From the NCBI GenBank assembly GCA_963775425.1, contig CAVZJB010000003.1:206983-270982 (forward strand): DNA of 64,000 nt. Direction: 5' to 3'. Below the pieces are notes generated by a model that worked only from the letters and a program-made list of their open reading frames with translations, made no database searches and had not been told where the DNA came from. Both the position numbers and the translations under genes were made by a program. The stretch comes from an uncultured delta proteobacterium (GTDB lineage Bacteria > Myxococcota > UBA727 > VGSZ01). Below are positions 43,625 through 60,778 of the stretch, one piece after another. Position 1 is the first letter of the stretch. Every line of letters starts with the position of its first letter.

Positions 43625-43900
43625 CGTCGGCGCGGGCTCTCCCCGGCGTAGGGCGCGGGCTTGCCCCGACGTAGGGCGCGGGCTTGCCCCGACGGAGGGC
43701 GCGCGCTTGCCCCGACGTAGGGCGCGGGCTTGCCCCGACGTAGGGCGCGGGCTTGCCCCGACGGAGGGCGCGGGCTTGCCCCGACGGAGGGCGCGGGCTT
43801 GCCCCGACGCAGGGCGCGGGCTTGCCCCGACGCAGGGCGCGGGCTTGCCCCGACGCAGGGCGCGGGCTTGCCCCGACGTAGGGCGCGGGCTTGTCCCGCG
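43625..43900. repeat. tandem array of ~12 x 23-bp REP-like units (GTAGGGCGCGGGCTTGCCCCGAC; variants GGAG/GCAG heads)
   Basis: Directly visible perfect 23-bp periodicity at 43648, 43671, 43694 ... 43878. Each unit carries the GGGC-TT-GCCC mini-palindrome. No spacers, so it is not CRISPR. Confidence 0.85.
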
Positions 43901-44031: not shown

Positions 44032-44466
44032 ATGTTGACGAACCGCTCGGCCCCGCCCGTGACCGTCACCCCGGTCCTCGTCTATCCCGATGTCCGCGCG
44101 GCGGTGACGTTTCTCGCCACGGCCTTCGGCTTCGAGGAGCGCGTGCGCATAGGCGACGCACACCGCGCGCAGTTGCGGGTGGGCGAGGACGGCGCCGTCG
44201 TCGTCGCCGACGTCGGCCGCGATCGCGTCGCCCCGAGCGCCGGCGTGGTCACGCACGTCCTCAAGGTCCGGGTTCCCGACGTCGACGCCGCCTTCGCTCG
44301 CGCCCGCGACGCCGGCGCGCGCGTCGTCGAGGATCTCACCACGCACGCGTACGGCGAACGCTCCGGCATGCTCGAAGACCCCGCCGGCCACCGCTGGGAG
44401 CTCACGCAATCCGTGCGCGACGTCGCGCCCGAGGAGTGGGGCGGCGTCGCCGTCGGTCGGTGGTGA
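44032..44466 (+). CDS. VOC family protein (glyoxalase/bleomycin-resistance/PhnB-like)
   Basis: MLTNRSAPPVTVTPVLVYPDVRAAVTFLATAFGFEERVRIGD...VTHVLKVRVPDVDAAFARARDAGARVVEDLTTHAYGERSGMLEDPAGHRWEL is the typical PhnB/VOC pattern. Confidence 0.75.
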   Translation: MLTNRSAPPVTVTPVLVYPDVRAAVTFLATAFGFEERVRIGDAHRAQLRVGEDGAVVVADVGRDRVAPSAGVVTHVLKVRVPDVDAAFARARDAGARVVEDLTTHAYGERSGMLEDPAGHRWELTQSVRDVAPEEWGGVAVGRW

Positions 44467-44514
44467 ACGGCTCCGGGGTGGCCTCGCCGCGGATGCGGCG
44501 ATACACCGCGTCCG

Positions 44515-44587
44515 GGCCCGTAGCTCAGCGGTAGAGCAGTCGGCTCATAACCGATCGTGTCGCAGGTTCGAATCCTGCCGGGCCCAC
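44515..44587 (+). tRNA. tRNA-Met (anticodon CAT; elongator-type, could alternatively be tRNA-Ile2/lysidine)
   Basis: Cloverleaf: acceptor GGGCCCG/CGGGCCC, D-arm GCTC-AGCGGTA-GAGC, anticodon stem GTCGG/CCGAT with loop CTCATAA, T-arm GCAGG-TTCGAAT-CCTGC, discriminator A. No initiator features (G1:C72; no 3xGC in the anticodon stem). Confidence 0.85.
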
Positions 44588-44688
44588 AGTTCAAGCGCTC
44601 CTCCGCCGCGCGGCCGCTCCGGATAGGCCCAAGCACCGTCGGCGCGGGTGCGGATCGTCGTGCAGGGCGGTTCGAATCCTGCCGGGCG
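44566..44688 (+). repeat. attL-type direct repeat: 104-bp unit beginning with the tRNA-Met 3' end (GGTTCGAATCCTGCCGGGCCCACAG...), 1 full plus 1 partial copy
   Basis: GGTTCGAATCCTGCCGGGC occurs at 44566 (inside the tRNA) and again at 44670. The same 104-bp unit recurs 4.5x at 54184-54650. Confidence 0.8.
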
Positions 44689-44689
44689 C

Positions 44690-46223
44690 GCCAATCGTTG
44701 CCCTTCGTCATTTCCGCGAGGATGGCGAAGGGCTTTTTCATGTCGTAACGCACGGTTACGCCCTCGAGGCGTGGGTTCGAAAGCACCATTTCGAGCAGTT
44801 GGCGCTTCTCCGAGGGAGTGCGCTGGTTCCACAACGATCTCGCCTGCTTGGCCAGTTCGAAAATGCGATCCGCGGTGACGAGGTACTTGTCGTCGAGCTC
44901 CTCGCTCGCGGCGCTGAGCCGGTCGAGCGCCGCGTGCTTCTCGCTGAGCAGAATCTCACGCTGGCGCTGGTACGTGACGTCGTCGAGCTTCCCGTCGACA
45001 TACATCGCCACGATCTTGTCCTCGCGGGCTTGCACGTCGTCCACCGTCCGCTTGAGGACGGCGATCTCGCGGCGGCGCTCGGTGCGCACGACCTCGTGGG
45101 TCTCGCGGAGCACGCGCGAGATCTCGTCGGCGAGCGCGTGCGGCAGCTCGATGTTGGCGATCGCGACCTCGAATTGCGCGAGGAGCTGCGCCTCCGTCAC
45201 GTGGACGCGCTTGGCGTGAACCCGGTGGCCGTTCGCGCACCGGTAGTAGTCGTACCGCTTGCCGCCGGTCTTGATCTTCGGGTCGTAGGTGATGCGGCAA
45301 CCGCACTCGGCGCAGACCAGGAAGCCGGAGAGGGCGCCGGCCGCGCCGAGGGGCGAGCCGTACGCGCCGCGGGTGAAGGTCGCCTGGAGCCGCTCCCACT
45401 CGTTGGTGGTGAACACAGGTTCGTGCTTCCCGCGGTAGCGCTCGTCGCGCCACGTGAACCAGCCCGCGTAGAACTCGTGCTTGAGGATCGCCTCGACGTC
45501 GCCCGCGCGGAGTACGCGGTTCTTGCGGCCGAGCCCCGCCCAGAGCCCTTCGTTCACGATGGACTTGCCGACGCTCTCGAGCGATGCGCCGGCTACGCGC
45601 AGCTCGTACATGCGGCGGATGAGGGCGCGCCCCGCGGGCAACAGCTCGATGGTGCCGCCACGGTCTCGCACGACCCCATTCGCGCCGACGAGCTTGGCGT
45701 TGCGGTAGCCGATGGGCGGGCGCGTCGGGTACCAGCCGTCCTTCGCCTTCGCGTCCTGCGACTCCTTGGCGCGGCGCGAGAGCTGCCGCGAATAGGTCTT
45801 CGCGACGAGCGTATTCATCTCGGCCTTGAGCCAGTCGCCTTCGTCGCTGCCCGCGTGAAGCTGCCAGCGCTCATGCGCGACGTGCAACACGAGCTCGTCG
45901 CGGCGGATGAGATCTTCGAGCAGCTCGTAGTCGGTGAAGTTGCGGGTGGTGCGGTCCCAGACCCAAAAGACGAGGTGCCGCACCTTCTCCTTCTTCGCGC
46001 GCGCGAGCGCCGCGTGAAACATGACGCGGGCCTCGGACGACTTCGCGCTCTCCTCGAGCACGATGACGTCCACGAGGTTGAGGCCGTGCGCCTTCGCGTG
46101 CGCGGTGATCCCCTCGCGCTGCACGCCGGGGCTGTTGTTGTCGCCCTGCTTCTTCGAGGACACCCGCACGACGCCGATCGCGCGGTCCGACTTTCCGAGC
46201 CACCGAGCAGCATTCACCTTCAT
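44690..46223 (-). CDS. large serine recombinase (resolvase catalytic domain + recombinase domain + zinc ribbon). 3' boundary unresolved.
   Basis: MKVNAARWLGKSDRAIGVVRVSSKKQGDNNSPGVQ (catalytic Ser region). Central recombinase domain. CAECGCRITYDPKIKTGGKRYDYYRCANGH (Zn ribbon). The coiled-coil C-terminus ends about ...KPFAILAEMTKGND. The ORF has no stop until 44082 and runs through the att repeat, the tRNA and the VOC gene, so the true 3' end is likely near 44690 or was replaced on integration. Confidence 0.7.
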
Positions 46224-47048
46224 GGTCCACCTCGCGGAGAAAGATCAGATCATGACGGAGAGCGGACGTCACCGGTCGCGCTCACCGTGGCGTCCTCCTG
46301 CGCCCACCGATCGAGCAACTCGAAGACGTTGGCGATCGTTTGGATGTCGGCGCGGGTGAACCGGACGGCGGCCTCCGGGTTCGCGGGCGAGAACATGCGC
46401 AGGTTCCCGCTCGACGTCTCTTCCAGCAGCATGAGCACCTCCAGCAGACACGTCGGCGATCGAGGCGAGCGCGCTCGCCGCATCCTTTCGTGTCGCCGTC
46501 GCCGTCGCCCTGCACTTCGCGGGCGGCGGTGACGGCATATCACCGTGTTGCTTGAGCCTGAGCCCCCTCCGCGCGCCGTGCGGCACCTCGTTCACGAGAT
46601 CGATGGATCAGCCAGCGACCTCCCGCCGCCCGTCGCGCAGCGACACGCGAAGCGTGCGGCGAGCGCTGACGAGATCGCCGTTGCGAACCTCGACAGCGCG
46701 GCCGGCCCGTCGCGCCTCAGCGCGACACGCGGAGCGTGCCGGCAGACGAAACCCCTTGTTGGGGGTGAGTCTGGAGGTCGCTGGCGCCACGTCAGTACGT
46801 GTCAAATGCTTTGGATTCGGCGGGGTAGCTCACCGGAAACTGTCACATGTACCTCCCCATTGTCCTGACACCAATTGACACGCATTGACGGGGCGCCGGC
46901 GGCCGGCGCGCCGGGCGGCGTCAAGATGGGAGCGCCTCGATGCCAAGATGCCACGTTTGGGACGCTGGCGTCCCGGCGTGGACAGTTGTTCGTTCGACGC
47001 ACGCCTGTCGTCTTGCGCTGAGGCCACGCGCTCGACACGATCACTTCG

Positions 47049-48195
47049 ATGCAACCGGGCCTCCTCTTCGATAAGTCCGCCTTTCAGGCGCTCAACGAGG
47101 ATGAGCATCGGTCGGTGCAAACGCTCTTCAAGGTCGGCCTCCCGCCAGTGCTAGCGAGCGAGGTCATCGCCGACCTTGCGAAGTACCCGCACGACAAGAA
47201 CGGGGAGGCGAAGGTCGCGACCCTCGCGGCCAAGTTTGGAGGTTCCGGACCGCCGCTCGTAGTCGGCCACGTTACCGCCACGCTGCGCTCGCTACTGGGC
47301 GCTGAGCCACCGCGGCGCGGCGACCTTTGGTACGCAACCCCTCGTCGCGCGGTGAATGCTGACGGAGAGCCGGGCATCGTGGTCGACACCGCGCCGATCA
47401 ATCACGCCATCTTTCGGTGGCGCGATGGCGAGTTCATCGACGCGGAACGGGACTACGCGCGCCGGTGGCGCGAAATGCTCGGTGAGCTGCAGTCGGGAAC
47501 GTTTTCGCCGCGTGCTGAAGTCGCAACACGTCGTCTTCCCCAAAGCGAAGAACGCAGTGGACGCACTTCGCATCGCCGACGCTGAACTCGTCGATCCCGC
47601 TCTGCAGCCCGCATGGCTCGAGTGGCTCTTGGATTCGCTCGCGCCCACGCCCCAGGTTGCAGGCGCTGTGCGCCAGCGATGGGACGTTGCAGATTTACCC
47701 CTTGTCGCGTTCGCTCCGTTCGCCGCGTTCTGTGTCCGCACGATGCTGTTCTTCGAGATCCTCACGCGCGGAAAGCACATCGTCGATCGCGAGACGAACC
47801 TGATCGACCTTCGCTATCTCTACTACCTACCCATGTGCCGCGTATTCGTCTCAGACGACAAGATGCACCGCGCGATGGCGCCTCTGCTCGCCCCAGGCGA
47901 TCGCTTCATCCCGTTGTCCGTGTTCCGCGCCGACTTGAAGGCCCTCGTCGAGGTTGGTGGCGGAGAGCACTTCCTCTTTCTCGGAGACGCGCTCGACGCA
48001 CTCAAGAAGCACCACGCGACGACGCCGACGTCGGTCATCGGGAAGATTGAGACATCGTGGGGTTGGGATCCGAACCGCGAACTCACGTCCTCAATGCCGC
48101 GGGAAGAGGTCCAAGCAATCCTTGAGAGGAAGTTCCCGCAACTTTTCAGCAAGAACCGGCGAGACGAGGGAGACAGTGACGAGCAATCGAGGTGA
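47049..48195 (+). pseudogene. hypothetical island protein, apparent -1 frameshift near 47510 (ORF 47049-47585 continues in the frame of ORF 47356-48195)
   Basis: Protein-like sequence switches frame at ...WREMLGELQSG / ERFRRVLKSQHVVFPKAKNAV...; the tails of each frame beyond the junction are junk-like. No recognisable domain. Confidence 0.4.
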
Positions 48196-48395
48196 GGGAG
48201 CCTGGCGCCGAACGGCGATGTCGCGTCACCGGTCACGAGTCACCTGGCGATGCTCATAGATTGCTTGCAAGACCGGCCGGCTAGCCGCCCTCAAGTACCG
48301 CAACGTTCGCGAGTCGGAGCGCCGCGGCTCCGGGCGTCGCGACCTTTTCGTGTGTCGCAACTTGCTCGCCTGGACTAGAAAGGCAGCGCAAGCCG

Positions 48396-49478
48396 ATGCC
48401 TTCGATCTTCGCCCGGGCAACCGTCAAGCGCGTCACTCCCGGCGCGCTCATGAACGAGGAGGACGTCAAGGTCCACCTCGTTATGCCGCGGTTACAGGAA
48501 TGCGGCTTCACGCAGGAAGAGCTGCACCTCGAGGCGACGTTCACGCTCCGCGCCGGCCGCTACACCTTGAATGTCGGCGGCAAGGGCGCTCCCCGCGCGC
48601 ACCACGTGCGGGCCGACATCCTCGTCCTGCGGGCGGGCAAGCCGCTCATGATCGTGGAGGTAAAAGCCGACCACGTCGATCTGTCGGCGGACGACGATCG
48701 GGACCAAGCGGTGTCCTATGCACGGCTTCATGATCCGATGTGCCCGGTCGCAGCGTTGACAAACGGCAAGCGGTGGCGGTTTTTTGACACGGTCTCAAAG
48801 AAGGAGATTTCCGCCGATGATGTGAAGGCGTCGACAGCACTGACCATCACGCTCGAGGACGAGCTTCGGAGGGAAGCCCTCATACAATTTGTCGGTTACT
48901 CGAAGGAGAACCTCGCGGCTTTCTGCGCCGAGCAGGTTCGTACCGCTGTCGCACCGTATCTCGCCGGTCTCGATGGCACGCTGCCGCTGTTTATTCCGTC
49001 GCTCTACGTCCTGCCCGGAGCGATGCGTGACGCCTGGGCGAAGTTTGTCGAGGGGTCACAGCGGGGGTTGCTCGTCAGCGGAGGGAACGGGTCTGGGAAG
49101 TCGGCATGGATGGTTCATGCGTCGACGTCGCTGACCGGTCAGGGAAGACCTTGTCTCTTCTACCGCGCGCATCTCTTGAGCGACGGATTCATCGCCCGCC
49201 TCGCTTCTGACCTCGCCTGGGCCTTGAGTCCGAACCTCTCGAGCGATGCCGCCGGTCGCCGCTTCGCGAACACCCTGAGGGGCGCGCAGCTTGTTGTCTT
49301 CATCGACAGCGCTGACGAGGCGAGCGAGGAGCTCACGAGAGCTGCGCTGAACGAGCTCGTCGAGAGATTTCCGGCTAACGTGCGCTTCGTCGTTGCGTGC
49401 AAGTCGACGCGGGTCGCGCCGCTCGGTCGCGACCCCGATGGATTAGACGCGGCGTGGTTCCAAAGCCTGGGAGATTGA
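48396..49478 (+). CDS. HsdR_N-type PD-(D/E)xK nuclease domain fused to a P-loop NTPase (Walker A/B)
   Basis: N-terminus EEDVKVHLVMPRLQECGFTQEELHLE...RADILVLRAGKPLMIVEVKADHVDL matches the type I restriction enzyme R-protein N-terminal (Mrr-like) nuclease fold (D...EVK). C-terminal VSGGNGSGKS (Walker A) and LVVFIDSADE (Walker B). Confidence 0.65.
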   Translation: MPSIFARATVKRVTPGALMNEEDVKVHLVMPRLQECGFTQEELHLEATFTLRAGRYTLNVGGKGAPRAHHVRADILVLRAGKPLMIVEVKADHVDLSADDDRDQAVSYARLHDPMCPVAALTNGKRWRFFDTVSKKEISADDVKASTALTITLEDELRREALIQFVGYSKENLAAFCAEQVRTAVAPYLAGLDGTLPLFIPSLYVLPGAMRDAWAKFVEGSQRGLLVSGGNGSGKSAWMVHASTSLTGQGRPCLFYRAHLLSDGFIARLASDLAWALSPNLSSDAAGRRFANTLRGAQLVVFIDSADEASEELTRAALNELVERFPANVRFVVACKSTRVAPLGRDPDGLDAAWFQSLGD

Positions 49479-49484
49479 GAAGGC

Positions 49485-51424
49485 GTGGACCCGAGCCTCC
49501 TCGACGAGACGGAGTTTTGGACGCTCGTGCAGCGGCACCAACGTCACTTCGGGGTGTTTCCGCTGTTCAGCGGCCGGCTCCGAGCCGAAGCACGACGGCA
49601 GCCGAGCCTTCTGCGCCTCATCTTCGAGGTCTCCGCACAGAGCCGCAATGACTTGGCCGCTCACAACTCCCGTGAGTTCTTCAAACGATACGTCGACAAG
49701 CGCTTCGAAAGGTTCCAGCACAGCGCCGACGCGCTGCGACGTCTGACGGACCTCGCCATGAAGATGTTCGACGAGAACACGGAGATGGTCGACGCCCAAG
49801 ATGCTATGAAGACAGTGGATGAACCGACTCTCCGACGTGCGGCGGACGTCGGGCTGGTCGAGCAAGTCCACGGCCAAGACGGGCGCCCACAGGTGCGCTT
49901 CCGCGAGTCGCGAGTGCGGAACTACCTCGTCATCTCAGAGGGCCATCGCTGGCTCTCGAAGACGGCGGATGTGCTTGAGACCGATGAGGTCCTTCTTAAG
50001 ATCACGGGCGGCGTGCAGCTTGAAGCGATGGAGCTTCTGTACCTGCTTGCGGACGAGGCGCAGAAGGTCGTCTTCGACGGGGATGCACGCAAGAACGCGC
50101 GCAAGGCTCTCTCGATCTTCGATGGCGCTGTTCGCGCCGTCTGTCCCGATCTCGGTGATCGTTTTGTCCCACCCCTCGGAAAGCGCGCGTTCGTGGGCTA
50201 CATCGACGTGCGGCGTGGGGCGCTTTTCGCGGTCGGCTTCATTCCGCGGGAAGGCGACGACGTGTTCTTCTGGCCGCGGACCCGCGGAATCTTTGAGGAC
50301 CGAACCGCGATGTTTCTCGGCGCGCGCAAGTTCTCGTCAAGGGCAGATGGCTTCCTCGATGAGGCAAAGGCTGCACATTTCGCGTTCTGGGAGACGTTCA
50401 AGGCAGAGCTGCACGGAAGTGGTCGAAAACGGCCGGCTCGACGAGTCAAAGTGTGCGCCCATGCTCTCGGAGCTCGCGACGGTGCTTGCGGCCGCGCTCG
50501 AGCTCGTTGAGCCCGCGCAGCGCGGTTTCCCGACCGTCGCAAAGACCGATATTGGCGCTATTCGCGTCGCTCTCTGGCGGAAGCGCGCGTATGAGAACTA
50601 CTTGGCCGAACACATGCCGCGGGACGAGACCCGCAGCGGCAGCTCTGTCGTCGTCACACGCCATCTGACGCCTGATGTTCACAGCGCGGCTCTAGCGCAC
50701 GCTGAATCGCTACCACTTGACTTCAGCGAGCTGCCCCCCGCTGAGGATCGGACGACCGCGACAGCGATGGAGGACGAGCTGCAGAGCGACGCTCGCTCAC
50801 CTTGAAGCGCTCGGCGAAACGAGCATCGAGAGCATCTTGCCGGCGTCGGATCAGAACGGTGCTCACATCTGGGAGCTTTGGAAGGAGCCGACGTTCAAAG
50901 CGGCCGCGGTACGGTTGACGCAGCTGCGCATTGAGTGCGTGGAGAATATCGTTCATGCGAGCTTCTCTCCCGACATCGCCAAGCGCATCCTCGGTGCCAC
51001 GACGACGGCCCTTTGCAGGCAGGACTATCGTGAAGGAACAGTTGAAGAGCTGCGTGTAACAACAAGCGCTGCGCTTCCCCGCGTAGTGGCGTTCGACGAG
51101 CGCCAAGAGGTCAAGCTGGCTCCCGACGGACGGACCGGAACCTTCCGGGGCGTGGAGATTCGCGACGTCGAATATTCATCAGCGACCTTTGCATTCGTTG
51201 CGAACGCGCGGAGCGCGTTTCTTCCGCAATCCTGGCGCTTCAAGCGTGAGCTCTGCCCGCTTCGAGCAGCGGTGTACCGCTTCATCGTCGACCGCTTGCC
51301 GTCCGCGCTCGCGCCGATCGGCAAGTCGCTTGGCGCTCCACCAACAAAGCGCTTGCGACTGACGTTGACGGGGCGACCGATTCCGCAGGATGTTGATGAT
51401 GCCGATGACGACGAAGAAACGTAG
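49485..51424 (+). pseudogene. large hypothetical island ORF, probably one ~640-aa gene broken by two frameshifts (segments 49485-50510, ~50461-50805, 50717-51424). May be the continuation of the upstream NTPase.
   Basis: GTG 49485 lies 6 nt after the upstream TGA. Protein-like text passes from frame 3 to frame 1 near 50430 (…FWETFKAEL / TEVVENGRLDES…) and to frame 2 near 50790 (…MEDELQS / ATLAHLEALGETS…). No recognisable domains. Confidence 0.35.
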
Positions 51425-52100
51425 CCGCGTTATCGAGGAAGTTCTGCTTCAGATCGCTGCATCGCGAGAAACCGAGGCGCCGGGGCCTCGCTCCTGCGTC
51501 CGTAGCCGCACTGCAACAGATTGCGGGGGAGGAGCGGGCCGGCTCAGTCCCCGTAGCCATCGCTTCCCGCCGGCTCAGTGCAGCAATCGCGTCATCTGTC
51601 TCGAGGTCCTCCTTCGAGAGATCAGATGTCGCCTTCGTGTTGGTGAGACGCGCCTTCAGGAACTTCACCAGATAGGTTTCGCCCGCGACCGCGTCGACTT
51701 TGGCGCGCTGGGCCACCTCAACGTTGCTGAAGTCCTGCTTTCCTTCGCGAAACAGCTCCATGACTGCGATGTAGACCCGCATGCCCTTGTTTGGCTGCTT
51801 CAGACCCTTCGAAGCCTTCGCGCGGTTGCACGCCATGCAAAGGACTTGCAGGTTCTCGAGGGCGTGGTTCTTGGCGTTCCCATCAACATGGTCAAAAGTG
51901 ATGCGTCGGTGCGAGCCGCACTTGCTACAGCGGAAGTCAGCATCGACAACGAGTTTCCAGAGTTCCTTTGTCGTCGGCGCGGACTTTCCGTAGGTTTCGC
52001 TCTTGAGCCAAGATCCCCGAACCGCGCCTGGCTGCGGAGGGCCGAACGCAGACAGTAGCGCCGCGAGCACGTCGTCTTCATTGAGCTCAAGCAGCTTCAT
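51282..52100 (-). CDS. HNH endonuclease
   Basis: CSKCGSHRRITFDHVDGNAKNHALENLQVLCMACN is the canonical HNH motif with a Zn-binding CxxC...CxxC. Start chosen at MKLLELNEDDV, because the upstream part of the ORF overlaps the rayT region. The 3' end overlaps the convergent ORF ending 51424. Confidence 0.7.
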   Translation of the reverse strand: MKLLELNEDDVLAALLSAFGPPQPGAVRGSWLKSETYGKSAPTTKELWKLVVDADFRCSKCGSHRRITFDHVDGNAKNHALENLQVLCMACNRAKASKGLKQPNKGMRVYIAVMELFREGKQDFSNVEVAQRAKVDAVAGETYLVKFLKARLTNTKATSDLSKEDLETDDAIAALSRREAMATGTEPARSSPAICCSAATDAGARPRRLGFSRCSDLKQNFLDNAATFLRRHRHHQHPAESVAPSTSVASALLVERQATCRSARARTASGRR

Positions 52101-52420
52101 GAATTCGAGTGACTCGTTCCACGGTGTCCTCGCTTTCTTCGGCCGCGACCGATGACGATGCTCTACGTTGGGTATCACGCAGGCGACGACGTCGCACTCA
52201 GCTCGCGACGGATCGCGGCACGCAGTTCGAAAAACCTCAAGCCGGGCGCGTTCGTGTTCTTCTGCGCGCGCAAAGCGCTTGGGGAGAAACGCCGTTTCTC
52301 CCCCGTCGCGGGCGGAGCCCGACGACGGCTCCCCCTCTTCCCCCGTCGCTGTGGCTCCTGCCTCCCTCCGGTCGGCCTCGTTCAGGGGCGGAGGCTCGTT
52401 CGAGCTTCGCCGTCGCGACC

Positions 52421-53078
52421 CTGGTCTGAGGGGGGCAGGCGTCCCGCCTGTCACGGGCGTCCCATGCGGATCAGGCGAGATCTCGCGCAAGAAGATCGAG
52501 CTCGGTCGGATGTTCATTGTGGACACAGACGCGCGCCGCCCAACCCTACATCGACGACGGCTCCCTCACTTCGTCCCGCCGCAGACCGAGCGCGGACAGA
52601 CTTACACTTCGTCACATGGCGCGTGCGCCGAGGCGTGGCACATCTCAGTCCTGACGAACGAGGCCGCGTCCGCGCGGCCATCAATCATTGCGATGCCATG
52701 CGCTACGAAGTCCACGCAGCCGTCGTCATGGACGATCACGTGCACGTGCTGTTGACGCTACTCGCTGACCACACGCTGAGCCGCGTGCTCCACACCTGGA
52801 AGTCGTTCACGGCGCACGAGCTTCAGAAGCTCGGCCGTCGCGGGAGCGTTTGGCAGGATGAGTCCTTCGACCGCACGATCTTCAGCGCGGCGGAGCCTCG
52901 AGCAGAAGGCAAGGTACATCGCGGCGAATCCGACGAAACGATGGCCCACCTTGTCCGGCTATCTGTGGGTGCAGTGTGTGGTCATGTTCACCAACGATCC
53001 GTGACAGGCGGGACGCCTGCCCCCCTCAGACGAACGATCAGTGACACGCGGGACGCGTGGCCCCCCTCAGACGAGAGC
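52421..53078 (+). mobile_element. REPtron-like unit: REP-associated tyrosine (Y1, IS200/IS605-like) transposase flanked by inverted hairpin repeats
   Basis: Left CTGGTCTGAGGGGGGCAGGCGTCCCGCCTGTCACGG (52421-52462) is the reverse complement of right CCGTGACAGGCGGGACGCCTGCCCCCCTCAGACG (52999-53036), with a second partial right copy at 53041-53078. Each contains the CAGGCG-TCC-CGCCTG hairpin. Confidence 0.6.
52464..53004 (+). pseudogene. rayT: REP-associated tyrosine transposase RayT (TnpA_REP), frameshifted near 52900
   Basis: DLHFVTWRV...HAAVVMDDHVHVLLT is the HuH motif. The conserved C-terminal ...ARYIAANPTKRWPTLSGYLW (YIxxNP motif) lies in the +1 frame ending at TGA 53002-53004. Confidence 0.55.
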
Positions 53079-53102
53079 TTCCGGCGTCATCAGGCGCAGC
53101 TC

Positions 53103-53280
53103 GGTTCGAAAATCCTCCATCCGGGCGCGCGTTTCGAGCCCATTCGCGACGTCGGCTACGTCGACGACCCGTAGGGCGGGGGCTCGTCCCCCGCCTTTTC
53201 CGTCGGCGGGCGCGCGTGGGGATACGGGGGACAAGCCCCCGCCCTACGCACCGCGGTTCGCAAATCGTCACACCGGGCGC
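53103..53280. repeat. 178-bp BIME-like repeat copy 1 (two inverted GTAG-headed REP hairpins GTAGGGCGGGGGCTCGTCCCCCGCC)
   Basis: Near-identical to 53992-54170. Begins with tRNA-T-loop-like GGTTCGAAAA. Contains GGCGGGGG-CTCGT-CCCCCGCC hairpins in inverted orientation. Confidence 0.75.
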
Positions 53281-53376
53281 GCTCTCCGATTTCGCCAACG
53301 ACGTCGAGGGCTTGGCCGACCCACGTGTCGACGCTTTCGAACTGAAGCCCGACGCGCAGCTTGCTAAGCTGATGGC

Positions 53377-53622
53377 GTGGCGAACGTAGAGCTTCTGAAG
53401 CGCATCAGCGTCGACCCTGCCGTCTGCGGTGGCCGGCCTTGTATCCGGGGGCACCGCATCTGGGTGTCGCTGGTGCTCGACTTCCTCGCCGACGGCGAGT
53501 CCGTCGACCAGATCGTCGCGAACTATCCCGGCATCGAGGCTGCGGACGTCCTCGCGTGCATCGCGTACGGCGCCGAGATGAGCCGGCTGCGCGAGGTCCC
53601 GCCGCGCCCCGCAGCAGGATGA
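53377..53622 (+). CDS. DUF433 domain protein (antitoxin-like)
   Basis: MANVELLKRISVDPAVCGGRPCIRGHRIWVSLVLDFLADGESVDQIVANYPGIEAADVLACIAYGAE is the DUF433 signature. ATGA overlap with the downstream DUF5615 gene. Confidence 0.75.
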   Translation: MANVELLKRISVDPAVCGGRPCIRGHRIWVSLVLDFLADGESVDQIVANYPGIEAADVLACIAYGAEMSRLREVPPRPAAG

Positions 53623-53984
53623 AGATCAAGCTCGACGAGAACCTCGGGCGACGTGGAGGGGCGGTCTTCCGCGTTGCGGGTCACGACGTCGACAGCGTCG
53701 TCGACGAAGGTCTCGCGAGCGCCGCCGACGATGCGGTGCGCGCGGCTGCGACGAGGGCGGAGCGCGTTCTCGTCACGCTCGACCTCGACTTCGCCAACCC
53801 GCTCCGGCATCCGCCGGCCGGGACGCCGGGGATCGCCGTGCTGCGGCTGCCGGAACCGCTTACGCCGTCCCTCATCGACGGCGCTGTCGTCGTGCTGCTC
53901 GGCGAGCTCGGCCGTGAACCGATCGATGGCCGACTCTGGATCGTCGAGGTGGATCGCATCCGCATCTACGATCCCGAGAGCTGA
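53619..53984 (+). CDS. DUF5615 (PIN-like) domain protein, putative toxin partner of DUF433
   Basis: MKIKLDENLG...VLVTLDLDFANPLRHPP...IAVLRLPEP is the DUF5615 pattern. A conserved two-gene DUF433/DUF5615 arrangement. Confidence 0.7.
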   Translation: MKIKLDENLGRRGGAVFRVAGHDVDSVVDEGLASAADDAVRAAATRAERVLVTLDLDFANPLRHPPAGTPGIAVLRLPEPLTPSLIDGAVVVLLGELGREPIDGRLWIVEVDRIRIYDPES

Positions 53985-53991
53985 AGGACAG

Positions 53992-54170
53992 CGGTTCGAA
54001 AAGCGTCAAGCCGGGCGCGCGTTTCGAGCCATTCGCGACGTCGGCTACGTCGACGACCCGTAGGGCGGGGGCTCGTCCCCCGCCTTTTCCGTCGGCGGGC
54101 GCGCGTGGGGATGCGGGGGACAAGCCCCCGCCCTACGCACCGCGGTTCGCAAATCGTCACACCGGGCGCA
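53992..54170. repeat. 178-bp BIME-like repeat copy 2
   Basis: Same sequence as 53103-53280 with a few substitutions (GGGGATGCGGGGGACAAGCCCCCGCCCTACG). Confidence 0.75.
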
Positions 54171-54183
54171 CAGCTCAAGCGGC

Positions 54184-54650
54184 GGTTCGAATCCTGCCGG
54201 GCCCACAGCTCAAGCGCTCCTCGGCCGCGCGCCCGCTCCGGATAGGCCCAAGCACCGTCGGCGCGGGTGCGGATCGTCGTGCAGGGCGGTTCGAATCCTG
54301 CCGGGCCCACAGTTCAAGCGCTCCTTCGCCGCGCGCCCGCTCCGGATAGGCCCAAGCACCGTCGGCGCGGGTGCGGATCGTCGTGCAGGGCGGTTCGAAT
54401 CCTGCCGGGCCCACAGTTCAAGCGCTCCTTCGCCGCGCGCCCGCTCCGGATAGGCCCAAGCACCGTCGGCGCGGGTGCGGATTGTCGTGCAGGGCGGTTC
54501 GAATCCTGCCGGGCCCACAGTTCAAGCGCTCCTTCGCCGCGCGCCCGCTCCGGATAGGCCCAAGCACCGTCGGCGCGGGTGCGGATTGTCGTGCAGGGCG
54601 GTTCGAATCCTGTCGGGCCCACAGTTCAAGCGCTCCTCCGCCGCACGCCA
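54184..54650 (+). repeat. attR-type tandem array: 4 full plus 1 partial copies of the 104-bp tRNA-3'-end-containing unit
   Basis: GGTTCGAATCCTG(C/T)CGGGCCCACAG recurs at 54184, 54288, 54392, 54496, 54600 (exact 104-bp spacing). The last copy diverges after ~50 bp. Confidence 0.85.
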
Positions 54651-54992
54651 CCGTCGGCGAATGCGTGGCACATCGCGGCCGATCGGTGTGGCGGCCGTCG
54701 CCTCGAAAAGGAGCCGCGGCGTCGGCGGCCGGTCGGAGCCGTCGGCTCTGACGACGGGGCCCGGCACGCGACGGCTCCGGAGGCCGTCGACGCCGCGACT
54801 CTGGTGCCGCGTCATCCGGCAACATGTTCCGCGTGACGCAAGCGCGAGCTCCGCGAGCGGGCCCACGAAGGCGAAACGCCGAAGGGGGGGACCCGCGCGA
54901 AGCGCGGGGGGGCCGGAGGCCCGGCTGTTCGCGCGCGTCAGCGCGCAAGAGAGCGGCTTGACCACGTGGACGTCGTGCGCCAAGAGGCCTTC

Positions 54993-59305: not shown

Positions 59306-60778
59306 ATGTGTCGGATGGTCATGACCCCTGTCCTCGTTGCCAGCCTCGCCGTGGCTGTCGCTGCATTCACCGCTTGCCCCGGCGAAGGCGAAGGCGAAGG
59401 TGAGGGCGAGGGCGAAGGCGAAGGCGAGGGCGACACCCAGTGCGGCGCGCGCGACCTCCCCTGCCACCCGGACGGCACCCCCAACTCGCAGTCCGACTGC
59501 TGCGACGCCACCGACGTCTGCGTGCCGCTCGACGGCAACGCCACCGTCGGCGCCTGCCGCCAGAAGTGCGGCGACCTCACCATCCAGAACGGCCAGGTCG
59601 CGAACGCCACCAAGGACCCCAGCGTCACCTGCACGGGGACGCGCACCTGCCAGACCGTCACCACCACCCCGGCGCTCGACATCGTCGCCGAGGCGTGCAT
59701 CGAGCCGGCTGACGGCATCGACGGCCTCTGCCACGACCTCTTCGACGTCGAGCTCCAGGACGCGGCGTGCCCCGACGGCCTCGACTGCGAGATCACGGCC
59801 ACCGACGCCAACGGCGACCCGTCGTCGTTGAACTGCAAGCAGCCGTGCGACCCCTTCGACGACACCAGCGTCGCCGTCTGCACGGACCAGGGCCTCGAGT
59901 GCCTCCAGGCGCCGCTGCAGTTCGCGAACATCCAGGACGACGGCAACGGCGGCCAGGTCCGCTGCGACGACGGCGCCACGCCCGACGGCAACGAGCTCGC
60001 GGCCTGCCAGGCCGGCGGCAACGCCGCGGACTGCCCGTGTGACACGGCCAACGGCTTCACCTGCGCGCAGTTCGGCCTCACCGGCGGCGGCAGCGGCTTC
60101 TTCTGCAACAAGGCCACCACCAACTGCGCCACCAACGTCCCGGCCACCACCCAGGCCGTCCTCGACGCGGATCCGGCGCACGCGATCAATGACCCGAACT
60201 TCCTCTGCAACGGCGTCGACGCCAGCCGCTACTGCGACCCGTCGATGTTCGACGGCGTGCCGGCCGAGAACGCGGGCAGCGACATCTGCATCTCCATCAG
60301 CCGCACCAGCAACGACGGCGTCTGCTTCGCGTTCTGCGGGTCGCCCGACGTCGACGACAACAACAACGGCACCATCGAGGACACCGAGAAGGGCCAGACC
60401 TTCCAGTGCGCCGACGGCTTCACCTGCGAGCCGAAGTTCGGTGTCAGCATCGGCATCTGGGTCGACATCCTCGACGCCCAGGGCAACCAGCAGACCTGCG
60501 CCTGCGACGGCGACGCCCAGTTCTGCGACGGCGGCACCCAGTGCGGCGCCAGCTCGCCGACCTTCTGCGTGAACAACCAGGGCTTCCACTGCGAGGCCCC
60601 CTTCAGCAGCTGCGAGCCCAACGCCGGCGAAGGCGAGGGCGAAGGCGAAGGCGAAGGCGAAGGCGAAGGCGAAGGCGAAGGCGAAGGCGAAGGCGAAGGC
60701 GAAGGCGAAGGCGAAGGTGAGGGCGAAGGCGAAGGCGAAGGCGAGGGCGAAGGCGAGGGCGAGGGCGAGGGCGAGTAG
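59306..60778 (+). CDS. cysteine-rich secreted lipoprotein with (GE)n repeats at both termini
   Basis: MCRMVMTPVLVASLAVAVAAFTAC has a lipobox, then (GE)10. About 60 Cys in a ~400-aa core. A C-terminal (GE)~27 tail, encoded by (GGCGAA)n. Confidence 0.7.
   Translation: MCRMVMTPVLVASLAVAVAAFTACPGEGEGEGEGEGEGEGEGDTQCGARDLPCHPDGTPNSQSDCCDATDVCVPLDGNATVGACRQKCGDLTIQNGQVANATKDPSVTCTGTRTCQTVTTTPALDIVAEACIEPADGIDGLCHDLFDVELQDAACPDGLDCEITATDANGDPSSLNCKQPCDPFDDTSVAVCTDQGLECLQAPLQFANIQDDGNGGQVRCDDGATPDGNELAACQAGGNAADCPCDTANGFTCAQFGLTGGGSGFFCNKATTNCATNVPATTQAVLDADPAHAINDPNFLCNGVDASRYCDPSMFDGVPAENAGSDICISISRTSNDGVCFAFCGSPDVDDNNNGTIEDTEKGQTFQCADGFTCEPKFGVSIGIWVDILDAQGNQQTCACDGDAQFCDGGTQCGASSPTFCVNNQGFHCEAPFSSCEPNAGEGEGEGEGEGEGEGEGEGEGEGEGEGEGEGEGEGEGEGEGEGEGEGEGE

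What the first reader, a model, noticed from the sequence alone, without database searches (positions are those of the whole stretch)
48396..52100. Candidate uncharacterised defense-type locus: HsdR_N/Mrr-like PD-(D/E)xK nuclease fused to a P-loop NTPase, a large unknown ORF, and a convergent HNH endonuclease
ORF 48396-49478 combines the type-I-restriction R-subunit N-terminal nuclease fold (ADILVLRAGKPLMIVEVK) with a Walker A (GNGSGKS) and a Walker B (VVFIDSADE) motif. It is followed 6 nt later by ~640 aa of unannotatable protein sequence, and then by an HNH nuclease on the opposite strand. Everything sits inside a mobile island next to a TA pair and a recombinase, a context typical of anti-phage defense systems. 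The nuclease-NTPase-plus-HNH combination loosely recalls Septu (PtuA ATPase + PtuB HNH), but the nuclease fusion and convergent orientation do not match described systems as far as I can tell.
Basis: partly seen in the sequence, partly recalled or inferred. Interest (0 to 1): 0.75.

Follow-up and report, generated by a model that had tools for sequence, protein, structure and literature searches.

The report
Broken nuclease-STAND (Avs-like) defence gene
The "nuclease-ATPase ORF plus large unknown ORF" is one gene for a roughly 1,000-residue NLR/Avs-type anti-phage protein that has been disrupted by a stop codon and two frameshifts, and the neighbouring HNH gene is not part of it.

Summary
ORF 48396-49478 carries an HsdR-type PD-(D/E)xK nuclease plus a P-loop with the NACHT Walker-B signature DSADE.

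It is not a separate gene, though. Its TGA stop (49476-49478) is in frame with the next ORF. The coding signal then continues through two +1 frame changes, near 50415 and 50791, to a stop at 51424.

Intact relatives are single ORFs of about 980-1080 aa and are collinear with all four window pieces. About 100 such clusters were found in soil and sediment bacteria.

A structure model of the closest intact relative matches Avs4, Avs5, NLRC4/NOD2 and an HsdR nuclease fragment. Its C-terminal 400 residues match no solved fold.

Two relatives lie among other defence genes: CBASS-like, AbiU2, type I/III restriction-modification and McrBC.

The locus is therefore a pseudogenised single-protein nuclease-STAND (Avs/bNACHT-like) defence gene, carried in a decaying ~10-kb tRNA-Met island.

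The convergent HNH gene is a generic HNH and is never found next to any relative. The Septu analogy fails.

This is a new, dead member of a known kind, and interest is low to moderate.

The parts
48396..49478 (+). Piece 1 of the ancestral gene (frame 0): HsdR-type PD-(D/E)xK nuclease plus the nucleotide-binding core of a NACHT-like STAND NTPase. The likely native start is the ATG at 48450 (M19).
   Evidence: Pfam HSDR_N/HSDR_N_2 on residues 21-137, and AAA_16/nSTAND5/NACHT below threshold on residues 211-343. The family profile (A3) matches positions 3-329, E 2e-113. Identity to intact P0005 is 50%. Relatives start at the equivalent of 'LMNEEDVK'.
48615..48719 (+). Nuclease catalytic core: D74, E88-x-K90 and Q104xxxY108.
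49080..49103 (+). Walker A motif, GGNGSGKS (residues 229-236).
   Evidence: Read directly from the sequence. G and K are invariant in the family.
49293..49319 (+). Walker B motif with the NACHT signature: VVFID-S-A-D-E (residues 300-308).
   Evidence: Read directly from the sequence. It fits D[GAS]hDE as defined in Kibby et al.. The Asp is invariant in the family.
49476..49478 (+). In-frame TGA nonsense codon (lesion 1) in the linker between the nucleotide-binding domain and the helical arm.
   Evidence: The translation reads ...SLGD*EGVDPSLLDETEF... in one frame. tblastn of P0005 runs straight through it at 45% identity over 669 residues.
49479..50414 (+). Piece 2 (frame 0): helical and winged-helix arm of the STAND module and the start of the C-terminal region.
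   Evidence: Family profile positions 354-665, E 8e-56. phmmer finds 102 clusters, mostly 980-1030 aa, with the match starting near residue 355-360. Identity to P0005 is 41%.
50415..50415 (+). Frameshift 1 (lesion 2). One extra base restores ...KAELH|EVVENGRLDE..., but its exact position is uncertain by a few bases.
   Evidence: The GC-by-codon-position signal switches phase here. See also the three-frame translation and the alignment to P0005 'KKELLDLIEVGGLDE'.
50416..50790 (+). Piece 3 (frame +1): middle of the C-terminal domain.
50791..50791 (+). Frameshift 2 (lesion 3). One extra base restores ...MEDELQSD|LAHLEALGE....
   Evidence: The tblastn segment for P0006 starts at 50792 in frame +2.
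50792..51424 (+). Piece 4 (frame +2): end of the C-terminal (putative sensor) domain, including the native stop codon.
   Evidence: Family profile positions 792-992, E 5e-10. tblastn aligns P0005 residues 776-980, E 2e-13.
51282..52526 (-). Convergent HNH endonuclease ORF. It is not part of the STAND gene. The likely real coding part is about 52178/52100 to about 51561, and the HNH motif lies at 51810-51929.
   Evidence: Pfam HNH 1.8e-5 and PHROG HNH 3e-9. Coding-like composition is confined to 52178-51561. No relative occurs near any STAND homologue. There are no matches in plasmids or phages.
44458..54700 (.). Context: a roughly 10-kb integrated island at tRNA-Met, bounded by att-like 104-nt repeats. 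It contains the serine recombinase ORF 44082-46223(-), another frameshifted gene 47049-48195(+), an IS200-like Y1 transposase at about 52590-53174(+), and a DUF433/DUF5615 pair at 53377-53984(+).

Best explanation
Positions 48396-51424 are the remains of one gene. It encoded a single-chain protein of about 1,000 residues belonging to the antiviral STAND / bacterial NLR-like kind.

The protein had three parts:
- an N-terminal HsdR-type PD-(D/E)xK DNase as effector;
- a central NACHT-like STAND NTPase (nucleotide-binding domain, helical domain, winged helix) as switch;
- a C-terminal alpha/beta domain of about 400 residues as presumed sensor.

By analogy with Avs3/4/7 and bNACHT25, intact relatives probably work as follows (inferred, not shown). 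The protein is autoinhibited until the C-terminal domain detects an infection cue. NTP-dependent oligomerisation then brings the nuclease domains together, and DNA is cut indiscriminately, aborting the infection.

In this genome the gene is inactivated by a TGA at 49476 and by single-base insertions near 50415 and 50791. At most a 360-residue nuclease plus half-NTPase fragment could be made. The gene lies in a decaying tRNA-Met island, where a neighbouring gene is also frameshifted. The convergent HNH gene is an unrelated island passenger.
For: One gene, shown:
- The stop codon is in frame with the downstream ORF.
- The codon-position GC signal runs continuously through frame 0, then +1, then +2.
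- Intact relatives are single ORFs of 1001-1082 aa in five genomes.
- phmmer with the downstream ORF finds 102 clusters, mostly 980-1030 aa, matching from residue ~355-360.
- tblastn with P0005 passes through the stop at 45% identity.
- A family profile hits the four pieces collinearly: positions 3-329, 354-665, 664-801 and 792-992.
- Segment identities to P0005 are 50, 41, 28 and 29%.

STAND/NLR kind:
- Walker A and the DSADE NACHT signature are present.
- The AlphaFold2 model of P0005 has pLDDT 83.9.
- Foldseek matches NAIP/NLRC4, NOD2, NLRP3 and Avs4.
- All 10 members scanned carry HSDR_N.

Defence role, by context:
- P0005 lies beside SMODS, DUF6602, HEPN_AbiU2, type III restriction-modification and SLFN_AlbA_2 genes.
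- P0003 lies beside type I restriction-modification and McrBC genes.

Real decay rather than sequencing error:
- Host ORFs of up to 1,178 aa in the same window are intact.
- A second island gene is also frameshifted.

Published precedent: nuclease activity is required for defence by bNACHT25/32 and Avs7.
Against: - No read data were available. Assembly errors cannot be formally excluded, and all three island frameshifts are single-base insertions.
- Family membership rests on sub-threshold HMM hits to NACHT/nSTAND5/Avs2 together with fold similarity.
- No member of this family has been tested.
- Contexts of L006-L008 are not obviously defence islands.
Confidence: 0.82

Rival explanations
1. 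The gene is intact in the organism. The stop codon and the two frameshifts would then be sequencing or assembly errors in a draft contig.
For: All three frameshifts in the island (about 47500, 50415 and 50791) are explained by single extra bases. The source is a single 726-kb contig of unknown sequencing technology.
Against: The first lesion is a substitution-type nonsense codon, not an indel. None of the sites lies in a long homopolymer. About 50 kb of flanking host sequence at 73% GC carries intact ORFs of 700-1,180 aa. Lesions cluster in the foreign, low-GC island.
Confidence: 0.1
2. This is a functional split system. ORF1 (nuclease plus nucleotide-binding core) and ORF2 (helical arm plus sensor) would be made as separate subunits by translational coupling, or the TGA would be read through.
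For: A GTG start lies 6 nt after the stop, preceded by GGAG...GAAGG. An independent relative, L001/P0002, also ends at 360 aa, with a stop about 10 codons away from the equivalent site.
Against: The downstream part is itself broken by two frameshifts. In L001 the TAA replaces a conserved Glu that is present in its close intact relative P0045 ('DDQELL' against 'DGQ*LL'), and no start codon follows for 24 codons. Full-length relatives are single ORFs. Shorter database entries begin inside the NTPase and look like contig-edge fragments.
Confidence: 0.05
3. One reading: a multi-gene, Septu-like defence system in which the nuclease-NTPase works together with the convergent HNH nuclease.
For: The two genes are physically adjacent within a mobile island. 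The HNH ORF gives weak HNH-level hits to ZorE (about 1e-3) and PtuB (0.031) models.
Against: There is no PtuA-type match for the NTPase. No relative of the HNH occurs in the 12 homologous loci (tblastn), and no HNH family is listed among the genes of P0005's contig. Neighbours of the relatives are not conserved. The orientation is convergent and the ORFs overlap at their 3' ends. The HNH hits cover only the generic 40-60-residue motif.
Confidence: 0.03

Closest known systems
bNACHT25/bNACHT32 (bacterial NLR-related proteins, clade 6; Kibby et al. 2023; PMC12169576)
   Same: Single chain with an N-terminal PD-(D/E)xK (REase-type) DNase followed by a NACHT-type NTPase carrying the D[GAS]hDE signature and then a C-terminal domain. 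In bNACHT25 the nuclease is required for defence.
   Different: bNACHT25 has the helical NCH1 C-terminal domain, whereas this family has a roughly 400-residue alpha/beta domain with no PDB counterpart. The nuclease here is specifically HsdR-N-like. The window copy is a pseudogene.
Avs (antiviral STAND) proteins, e.g. Avs4 (PDB 8dgf), Avs3/Avs7 with Cap4 nuclease, Avs5
   Different: There are only sub-threshold hits to Avs2 models and none to Avs1, 3, 4 or 5. The protein is much shorter (about 1,000 aa against 1,300-2,000). The sensor is not TPR-like. The effector is HsdR-N-type rather than Cap4 or Mrr. The trigger is unknown.
Type I restriction enzyme HsdR subunit (N-terminal nuclease domain)
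   Same: The nuclease domain matches HSDR_N/HSDR_N_2 above Pfam thresholds. It has D...ExK plus a QxxxY motif and resembles HsdR fragment 3h1t. That QxxxY is typical of HsdR is from my own knowledge.
   Different: There is no SF2 helicase/translocase motor (no ResIII or DEAD), and no adjacent HsdM/HsdS genes in the window.
Septu (PtuA ATPase + PtuB HNH)
   Same: An NTPase gene lies next to an HNH gene.
   Different: There is no PtuA homology, and the PtuB hit is insignificant (E = 0.031). The orientation is convergent, and the pair does not co-occur in relatives.

Membership tests
STAND NTPase, NACHT-like | Walker A P-loop GxxxxGK[ST] | tested here: met
   GGNGSGKS at residues 229-236. G and K are invariant in 52 relatives.
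STAND NTPase, NACHT-like | Walker B followed by the NACHT signature D[GAS]hDE (definition quoted from Kibby et al.) | tested here: met
   VVFID-S-A-D-E at residues 300-308. The family consensus is VDxxDEW.
STAND NTPase, NACHT-like | Helical and winged-helix extension C-terminal to the P-loop core | tested here: met
STAND NTPase, NACHT-like | Match to Pfam NACHT / nSTAND_NTPase5 / NPHP3_N above the gathering score | tested here: not met
   All hits are below cut-off: for example nSTAND5 21.6 bits against 34, and NACHT 14-19 bits against 26.7.
Avs (antiviral STAND) defence proteins | Effector - STAND NTPase - large C-terminal sensor in one polypeptide | tested here: met
   Nuclease at residues 1-140, NTPase and arm at about 200-590, and a C-terminal domain of about 400 residues in P0005 and relatives. 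In L008 the C-terminal domain is swapped for HEAT repeats.
Avs (antiviral STAND) defence proteins | Match to a named Avs model (PADLOC Avs1-5, NCBIfam Avs2/Avs3a) | tested here: not met
   The best hit is Avs2, E 2e-7 at 27 bits, over the P-loop region only. NCBIfam Avs2 scores 17-18 bits against a cut-off of 1000.
Avs (antiviral STAND) defence proteins | Enrichment next to known defence genes | tested here: inconclusive
   Clear for P0005 (SMODS, AbiU2, type III restriction-modification, Schlafen-like) and for P0003 (type I restriction-modification, McrBC). Not evident for L006-L008. Too few loci were examined for statistics.
Avs (antiviral STAND) defence proteins | Experimentally shown phage protection and a defined trigger | not testable with these tools
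   No member of this family was found in PDB by sequence or in the literature read.
Functional gene (any family) | Uninterrupted reading frame over the full family length | tested here: not met
   TGA at 49476-49478 and frame changes near 50415 and 50791.
Septu | PtuA-type ATPase | tested here: not met
   No PtuA model hit for any piece of the gene in PADLOC.
Septu | PtuB HNH partner conserved in an operon with the ATPase | tested here: not met
   PtuB1 E = 0.031. The orientation is convergent. No HNH relative occurs in the 12 homologous loci or in the gene list of P0005's contig.
Type I restriction enzyme HsdR | HSDR_N nuclease domain | tested here: met
   PF04313 31.9 bits and PF13588 31.2 bits, both above cut-off. 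PADLOC REase_I 8e-9 over the N-terminus only.
Type I restriction enzyme HsdR | SF2 helicase/translocase motor (ResIII/DEAD) and HsdM/HsdS partners | tested here: not met
   No such domains in the window gene or in 10 relatives. NCBIfam EcoAI scores 40 bits against a cut-off of 550.

The most novel reading that the evidence does not exclude
Two independent lineages carry a premature stop within about 10 codons of each other, exactly at the junction between the nucleotide-binding core and the helical arm. These are the window (TGA) and soil contig L001 (TAA), and both leave a 360-residue nuclease-plus-P-loop product. This could reflect selection for a truncated or readthrough-regulated form, such as a decoy, a dominant-negative regulator or a constitutive toxin kept at low level, rather than random decay. 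Separately, the intact family may be a distinct Avs-type lineage whose non-repeat alpha/beta sensor, with no solved counterpart, recognises a new kind of trigger.
Probability: 0.05. Interest if true: 0.55.

Novelty: new member of a known kind. Interest (0 to 1): 0.25.

Why it matters
For this genome, it corrects the annotation. Two database "proteins" (P0001 and P0004) and a stretch of unassigned sequence are really one dead defence gene, and no new multi-gene system is present.

More broadly, it points to a small uncharacterised family of about 100 clusters at 50% identity, found in Acidobacteriota, Gemmatimonadota, Verrucomicrobiota, Aminicenantes and this high-GC genome. The family joins an HsdR-type nuclease to a NACHT-like switch and a C-terminal domain with no solved counterpart.

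Intact members such as P0005 would be reasonable candidates for trigger-finding screens of the kind reported for Avs7-21. The pseudogenes, one here and one in L001, fit the expected rapid turnover of costly abortive-infection genes.

Tried and rejected
- Word-indexed protein search with the repaired 649-aa downstream part found nothing. With a 10-sequence profile it found only P0005, P0006 and two weak hits. The exhaustive phmmer search was needed.
- PADLOC and NCBIfam on the window pieces and on eight or nine intact relatives gave no named defence model, only type I REase N-terminus hits and weak Avs2, EruA-NACHT and PDC-M16A/M54A P-loop hits.
- I looked for a conserved upstream partner, since an Mrr_N gene precedes the homologue in L001. 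The upstream genes differ in L006-L008 (none, none, T5orf172), so this was rejected.
- I looked for a conserved downstream partner or HNH. The downstream genes are RNase E/G, alcohol dehydrogenase, Pta and unknowns, so this was rejected.
- The HNH protein has no match in plasmids or phages. It has only motif-level matches in two metagenome contigs and no significant PDB sequence match (only 3g74, E 0.63).
- A PDB sequence search with the family profile gave only P-loop-level hits.
- The source organism could not be identified. ORF1, ORF2 and RpoD are singleton clusters from one 726-kb NCBI/ENA contig, and the genome is not among the species representatives scanned.
- The promoter/terminator scan did not exceed the shuffled expectation.
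- Rfam found only the tRNA.
- Database proteins of about 700-775 aa were considered as natural 'split' forms. They start inside the NTPase, just before Walker B, and look like contig-edge fragments, so this was rejected.
Full report
**1. What is in the sequence**

The window is about 73% GC. Between about 44.5 and 54.7 kb, GC falls to about 62% and third-position GC falls from 0.91-0.97 to about 0.75.

This stretch begins at a tRNA-Met gene (44514-44587). It is bounded by att-like repeats of the tRNA 3' end plus downstream sequence. One copy lies at 44458-44769, and 4.5 tandem 104-nt copies lie at 54181-54649.

The stretch carries:
- a large serine recombinase (Resolvase, Recombinase and Zn_ribbon_recom domains);
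- an unknown gene broken by a frameshift near 47500;
- the locus under study;
- an HNH ORF on the minus strand;
- an IS200-like Y1 transposase;
- a DUF433/DUF5615 pair.

**2. The observation**

ORF 48396-49478 (360 aa) contains the quoted motifs. Pfam places HSDR_N and HSDR_N_2 on residues 21-137, above threshold. It places AAA_16, nSTAND_NTPase5, NPHP3_N and NACHT on residues 211-343, below threshold.

The nuclease triad D74/E88/K90, a QxxxY motif (Q104-Y108), the Walker A G/K and the Walker B Asp all fall in columns that are invariant or at least 90% conserved across 52 relatives. The Walker B reads D-S-A-D-E, which fits the NACHT signature D[GAS]hDE as defined by Kibby et al..

The '~640 aa ORF' is not one ORF. 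Only 49485-50510 is open.

**3. One gene, three lesions**

The TGA at 49476-49478 is in the same frame as the next ORF. The translation reads ...WFQSLGD*EGVDPSLLDETEFWTLV....

GC by codon position shows an uninterrupted coding signal. It runs in frame 0 to about 50400, in frame +1 to about 50790, and in frame +2 to the stop at 51424.

Several comparisons with relatives agree:
- A pattern scan of species-representative genomes found relatives that are single ORFs of 1045, 1001, 1082 and 1074 codons (L006, L007, L008, L010).
- An exhaustive phmmer search with the downstream ORF alone found 102 clusters. Most are 980-1030 aa, and the match begins at residue ~355-360.
- The closest intact relative is P0005 (984 aa). 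By tblastn it aligns to 48444-50411 at 45% identity straight through the stop codon, and again to the region around 50792-51340 in frame +2.
- A profile built from 52 relatives hits the four window pieces in collinear order, at profile positions 3-329, 354-665, 664-801 and 792-992. The E values are 2e-113, 8e-56, 0.023 and 5e-10.
- A repaired translation is collinear with P0005 and P0006 end to end, at 50, 41, 28 and 29% identity per segment to P0005.

Each frameshift is explained by one extra base:
- ...CTG CAC [G] GAA GTG..., at 50415;
- ...AGC GAC [G] CTC GCT..., at 50791.

**4. Real decay or assembly error?**

I could not see reads. Three points argue against error:
- the first lesion is a substitution;
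- no site lies in a long homopolymer;
- roughly 50 kb of flanking host sequence carries intact ORFs of up to 1,178 codons.

Lesions are confined to the foreign island, where the upstream gene is also frameshifted. I rate true pseudogenisation far more likely than error, at about 0.1 for the latter.

**5. A second truncated relative**

Soil contig L001 encodes a 360-aa relative, P0002 (37% identity), that also ends prematurely. Its TAA replaces a conserved Glu: the close intact relative P0045 reads 'DDQELL' where L001 reads 'DGQ*LL'. Homology continues in frame after the stop, and no start codon follows for 24 codons.

This is an independent nonsense mutation about 10 codons from the window's. 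I read it as turnover of a costly gene. The alternative, a selected truncation, is kept as the low-probability novel case.

**6. What the family is**

All 10 members scanned carry HSDR_N. AlphaFold2 modelled P0005 with a 52-sequence alignment at pLDDT 83.9 and pTM 0.74.

Structural matches to the full model:
- Foldseek against PDB returns NAIP/NLRC4, NOD2, NLRP3, NLRP7/14, Avs4, ZAR1 and MalT.

No PADLOC, NCBIfam or PDB-sequence entry matches specifically.

Two relatives lie among defence genes:
- P0005 lies next to SMODS, DUF6602, HEPN_AbiU2, a type III restriction-modification system and a Schlafen-like gene.
- P0003 lies next to a type I restriction-modification system and McrBC.

**7. Mechanism (inferred)**

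The architecture matches bNACHT25/32, which combine a PD-(D/E)xK DNase, a NACHT module and a C-terminal domain, and in which nuclease activity is required for defence. It also matches nuclease-bearing Avs proteins, where target binding relieves autoinhibition and ATP-dependent tetramerisation assembles the nuclease.

The most likely mechanism for intact members is trigger sensing by the C-terminal domain, followed by NTP-dependent oligomerisation and then DNA cleavage. None of these steps has been shown for this family.

The window copy can at best make the nuclease plus the nucleotide-binding core, without the helical/winged-helix arm or the sensor.

**8. The HNH gene**

The HNH domain is generic (Pfam 1.8e-5; PHROG HNH families; weak ZorE hits and an insignificant PtuB hit).

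Coding-like composition covers only about 52178-51561. The ORF's N-terminal 116 codons and last ~90 codons look non-coding, and the tail overlaps the 3' end of the STAND gene.

No relative of the HNH, or of any other island gene, occurs in the 12 loci holding STAND relatives or among the listed neighbours. It is an independent passenger, and the Septu analogy is rejected.

**9. Verdict**

This is a new, pseudogenised member of a known kind, the nuclease-STAND / Avs / bacterial NLR-like proteins. Lee et al. 2026 describe 198 defence-associated STAND clades and 684 sensor clusters. This family may already be among them, but I could not map it without accessions.

Noticed in passing
window 43629-43898: 11.7 tandem copies of a 23-nt unit (GGCGCGGGCTTGCCCCGACGTAG, 95% matches) lie between rpoD and tRNA-Met. 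Their function is unknown.
   Followed up: no
window 54181-54649 and 44458-44769: 4.5 tandem copies of a 104-nt unit, made of the 3' part of tRNA-Met plus downstream sequence, sit at the far end of the island. They suggest repeated integration or excision at this att site.
   Followed up: partly
window 47049-48195: A second island gene of about 382 codons is broken by a +1 frameshift near 47500. It has no Pfam, PHROG, PADLOC or NCBIfam match and no relative near the STAND homologues.
   Followed up: partly
window 52223-54181: An IS200-like Y1 transposase (about 52590-53174, PF01797 1.5e-6) is accompanied by five copies of a 39-nt repeat. A 141-nt repeat (53140-53280 and 54029-54169) brackets the DUF433/DUF5615 pair. 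The layout looks like a REP/RAYT-type arrangement.
   Followed up: no
window 44082-46223 (-): The serine recombinase ORF has no stop before 44082. It therefore reads through the tRNA-Met gene on the opposite strand, and its C-terminal ~190 codons are probably not native.
   Followed up: no
L001 1921-1923 (JGI soil metagenome 3300012199): An independent relative of the STAND gene carries a TAA in place of a conserved Glu. The truncated product is again 360 aa.
   Followed up: yes
L002-L005 (ENA ERZ136929xx), gene end 11386: Four separate assemblies all break 9 nt after a 461-aa relative (P0003) that stops early in the helical arm. This may reflect strain variation or a repeat just downstream.
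   Followed up: no
window 59306-60778: A Cys-rich ORF of 490 aa is flanked at both ends by long (Gly-Glu)n repeats. The same repeats are read as (Ala-Phe)n on the opposite strand.
   Followed up: no
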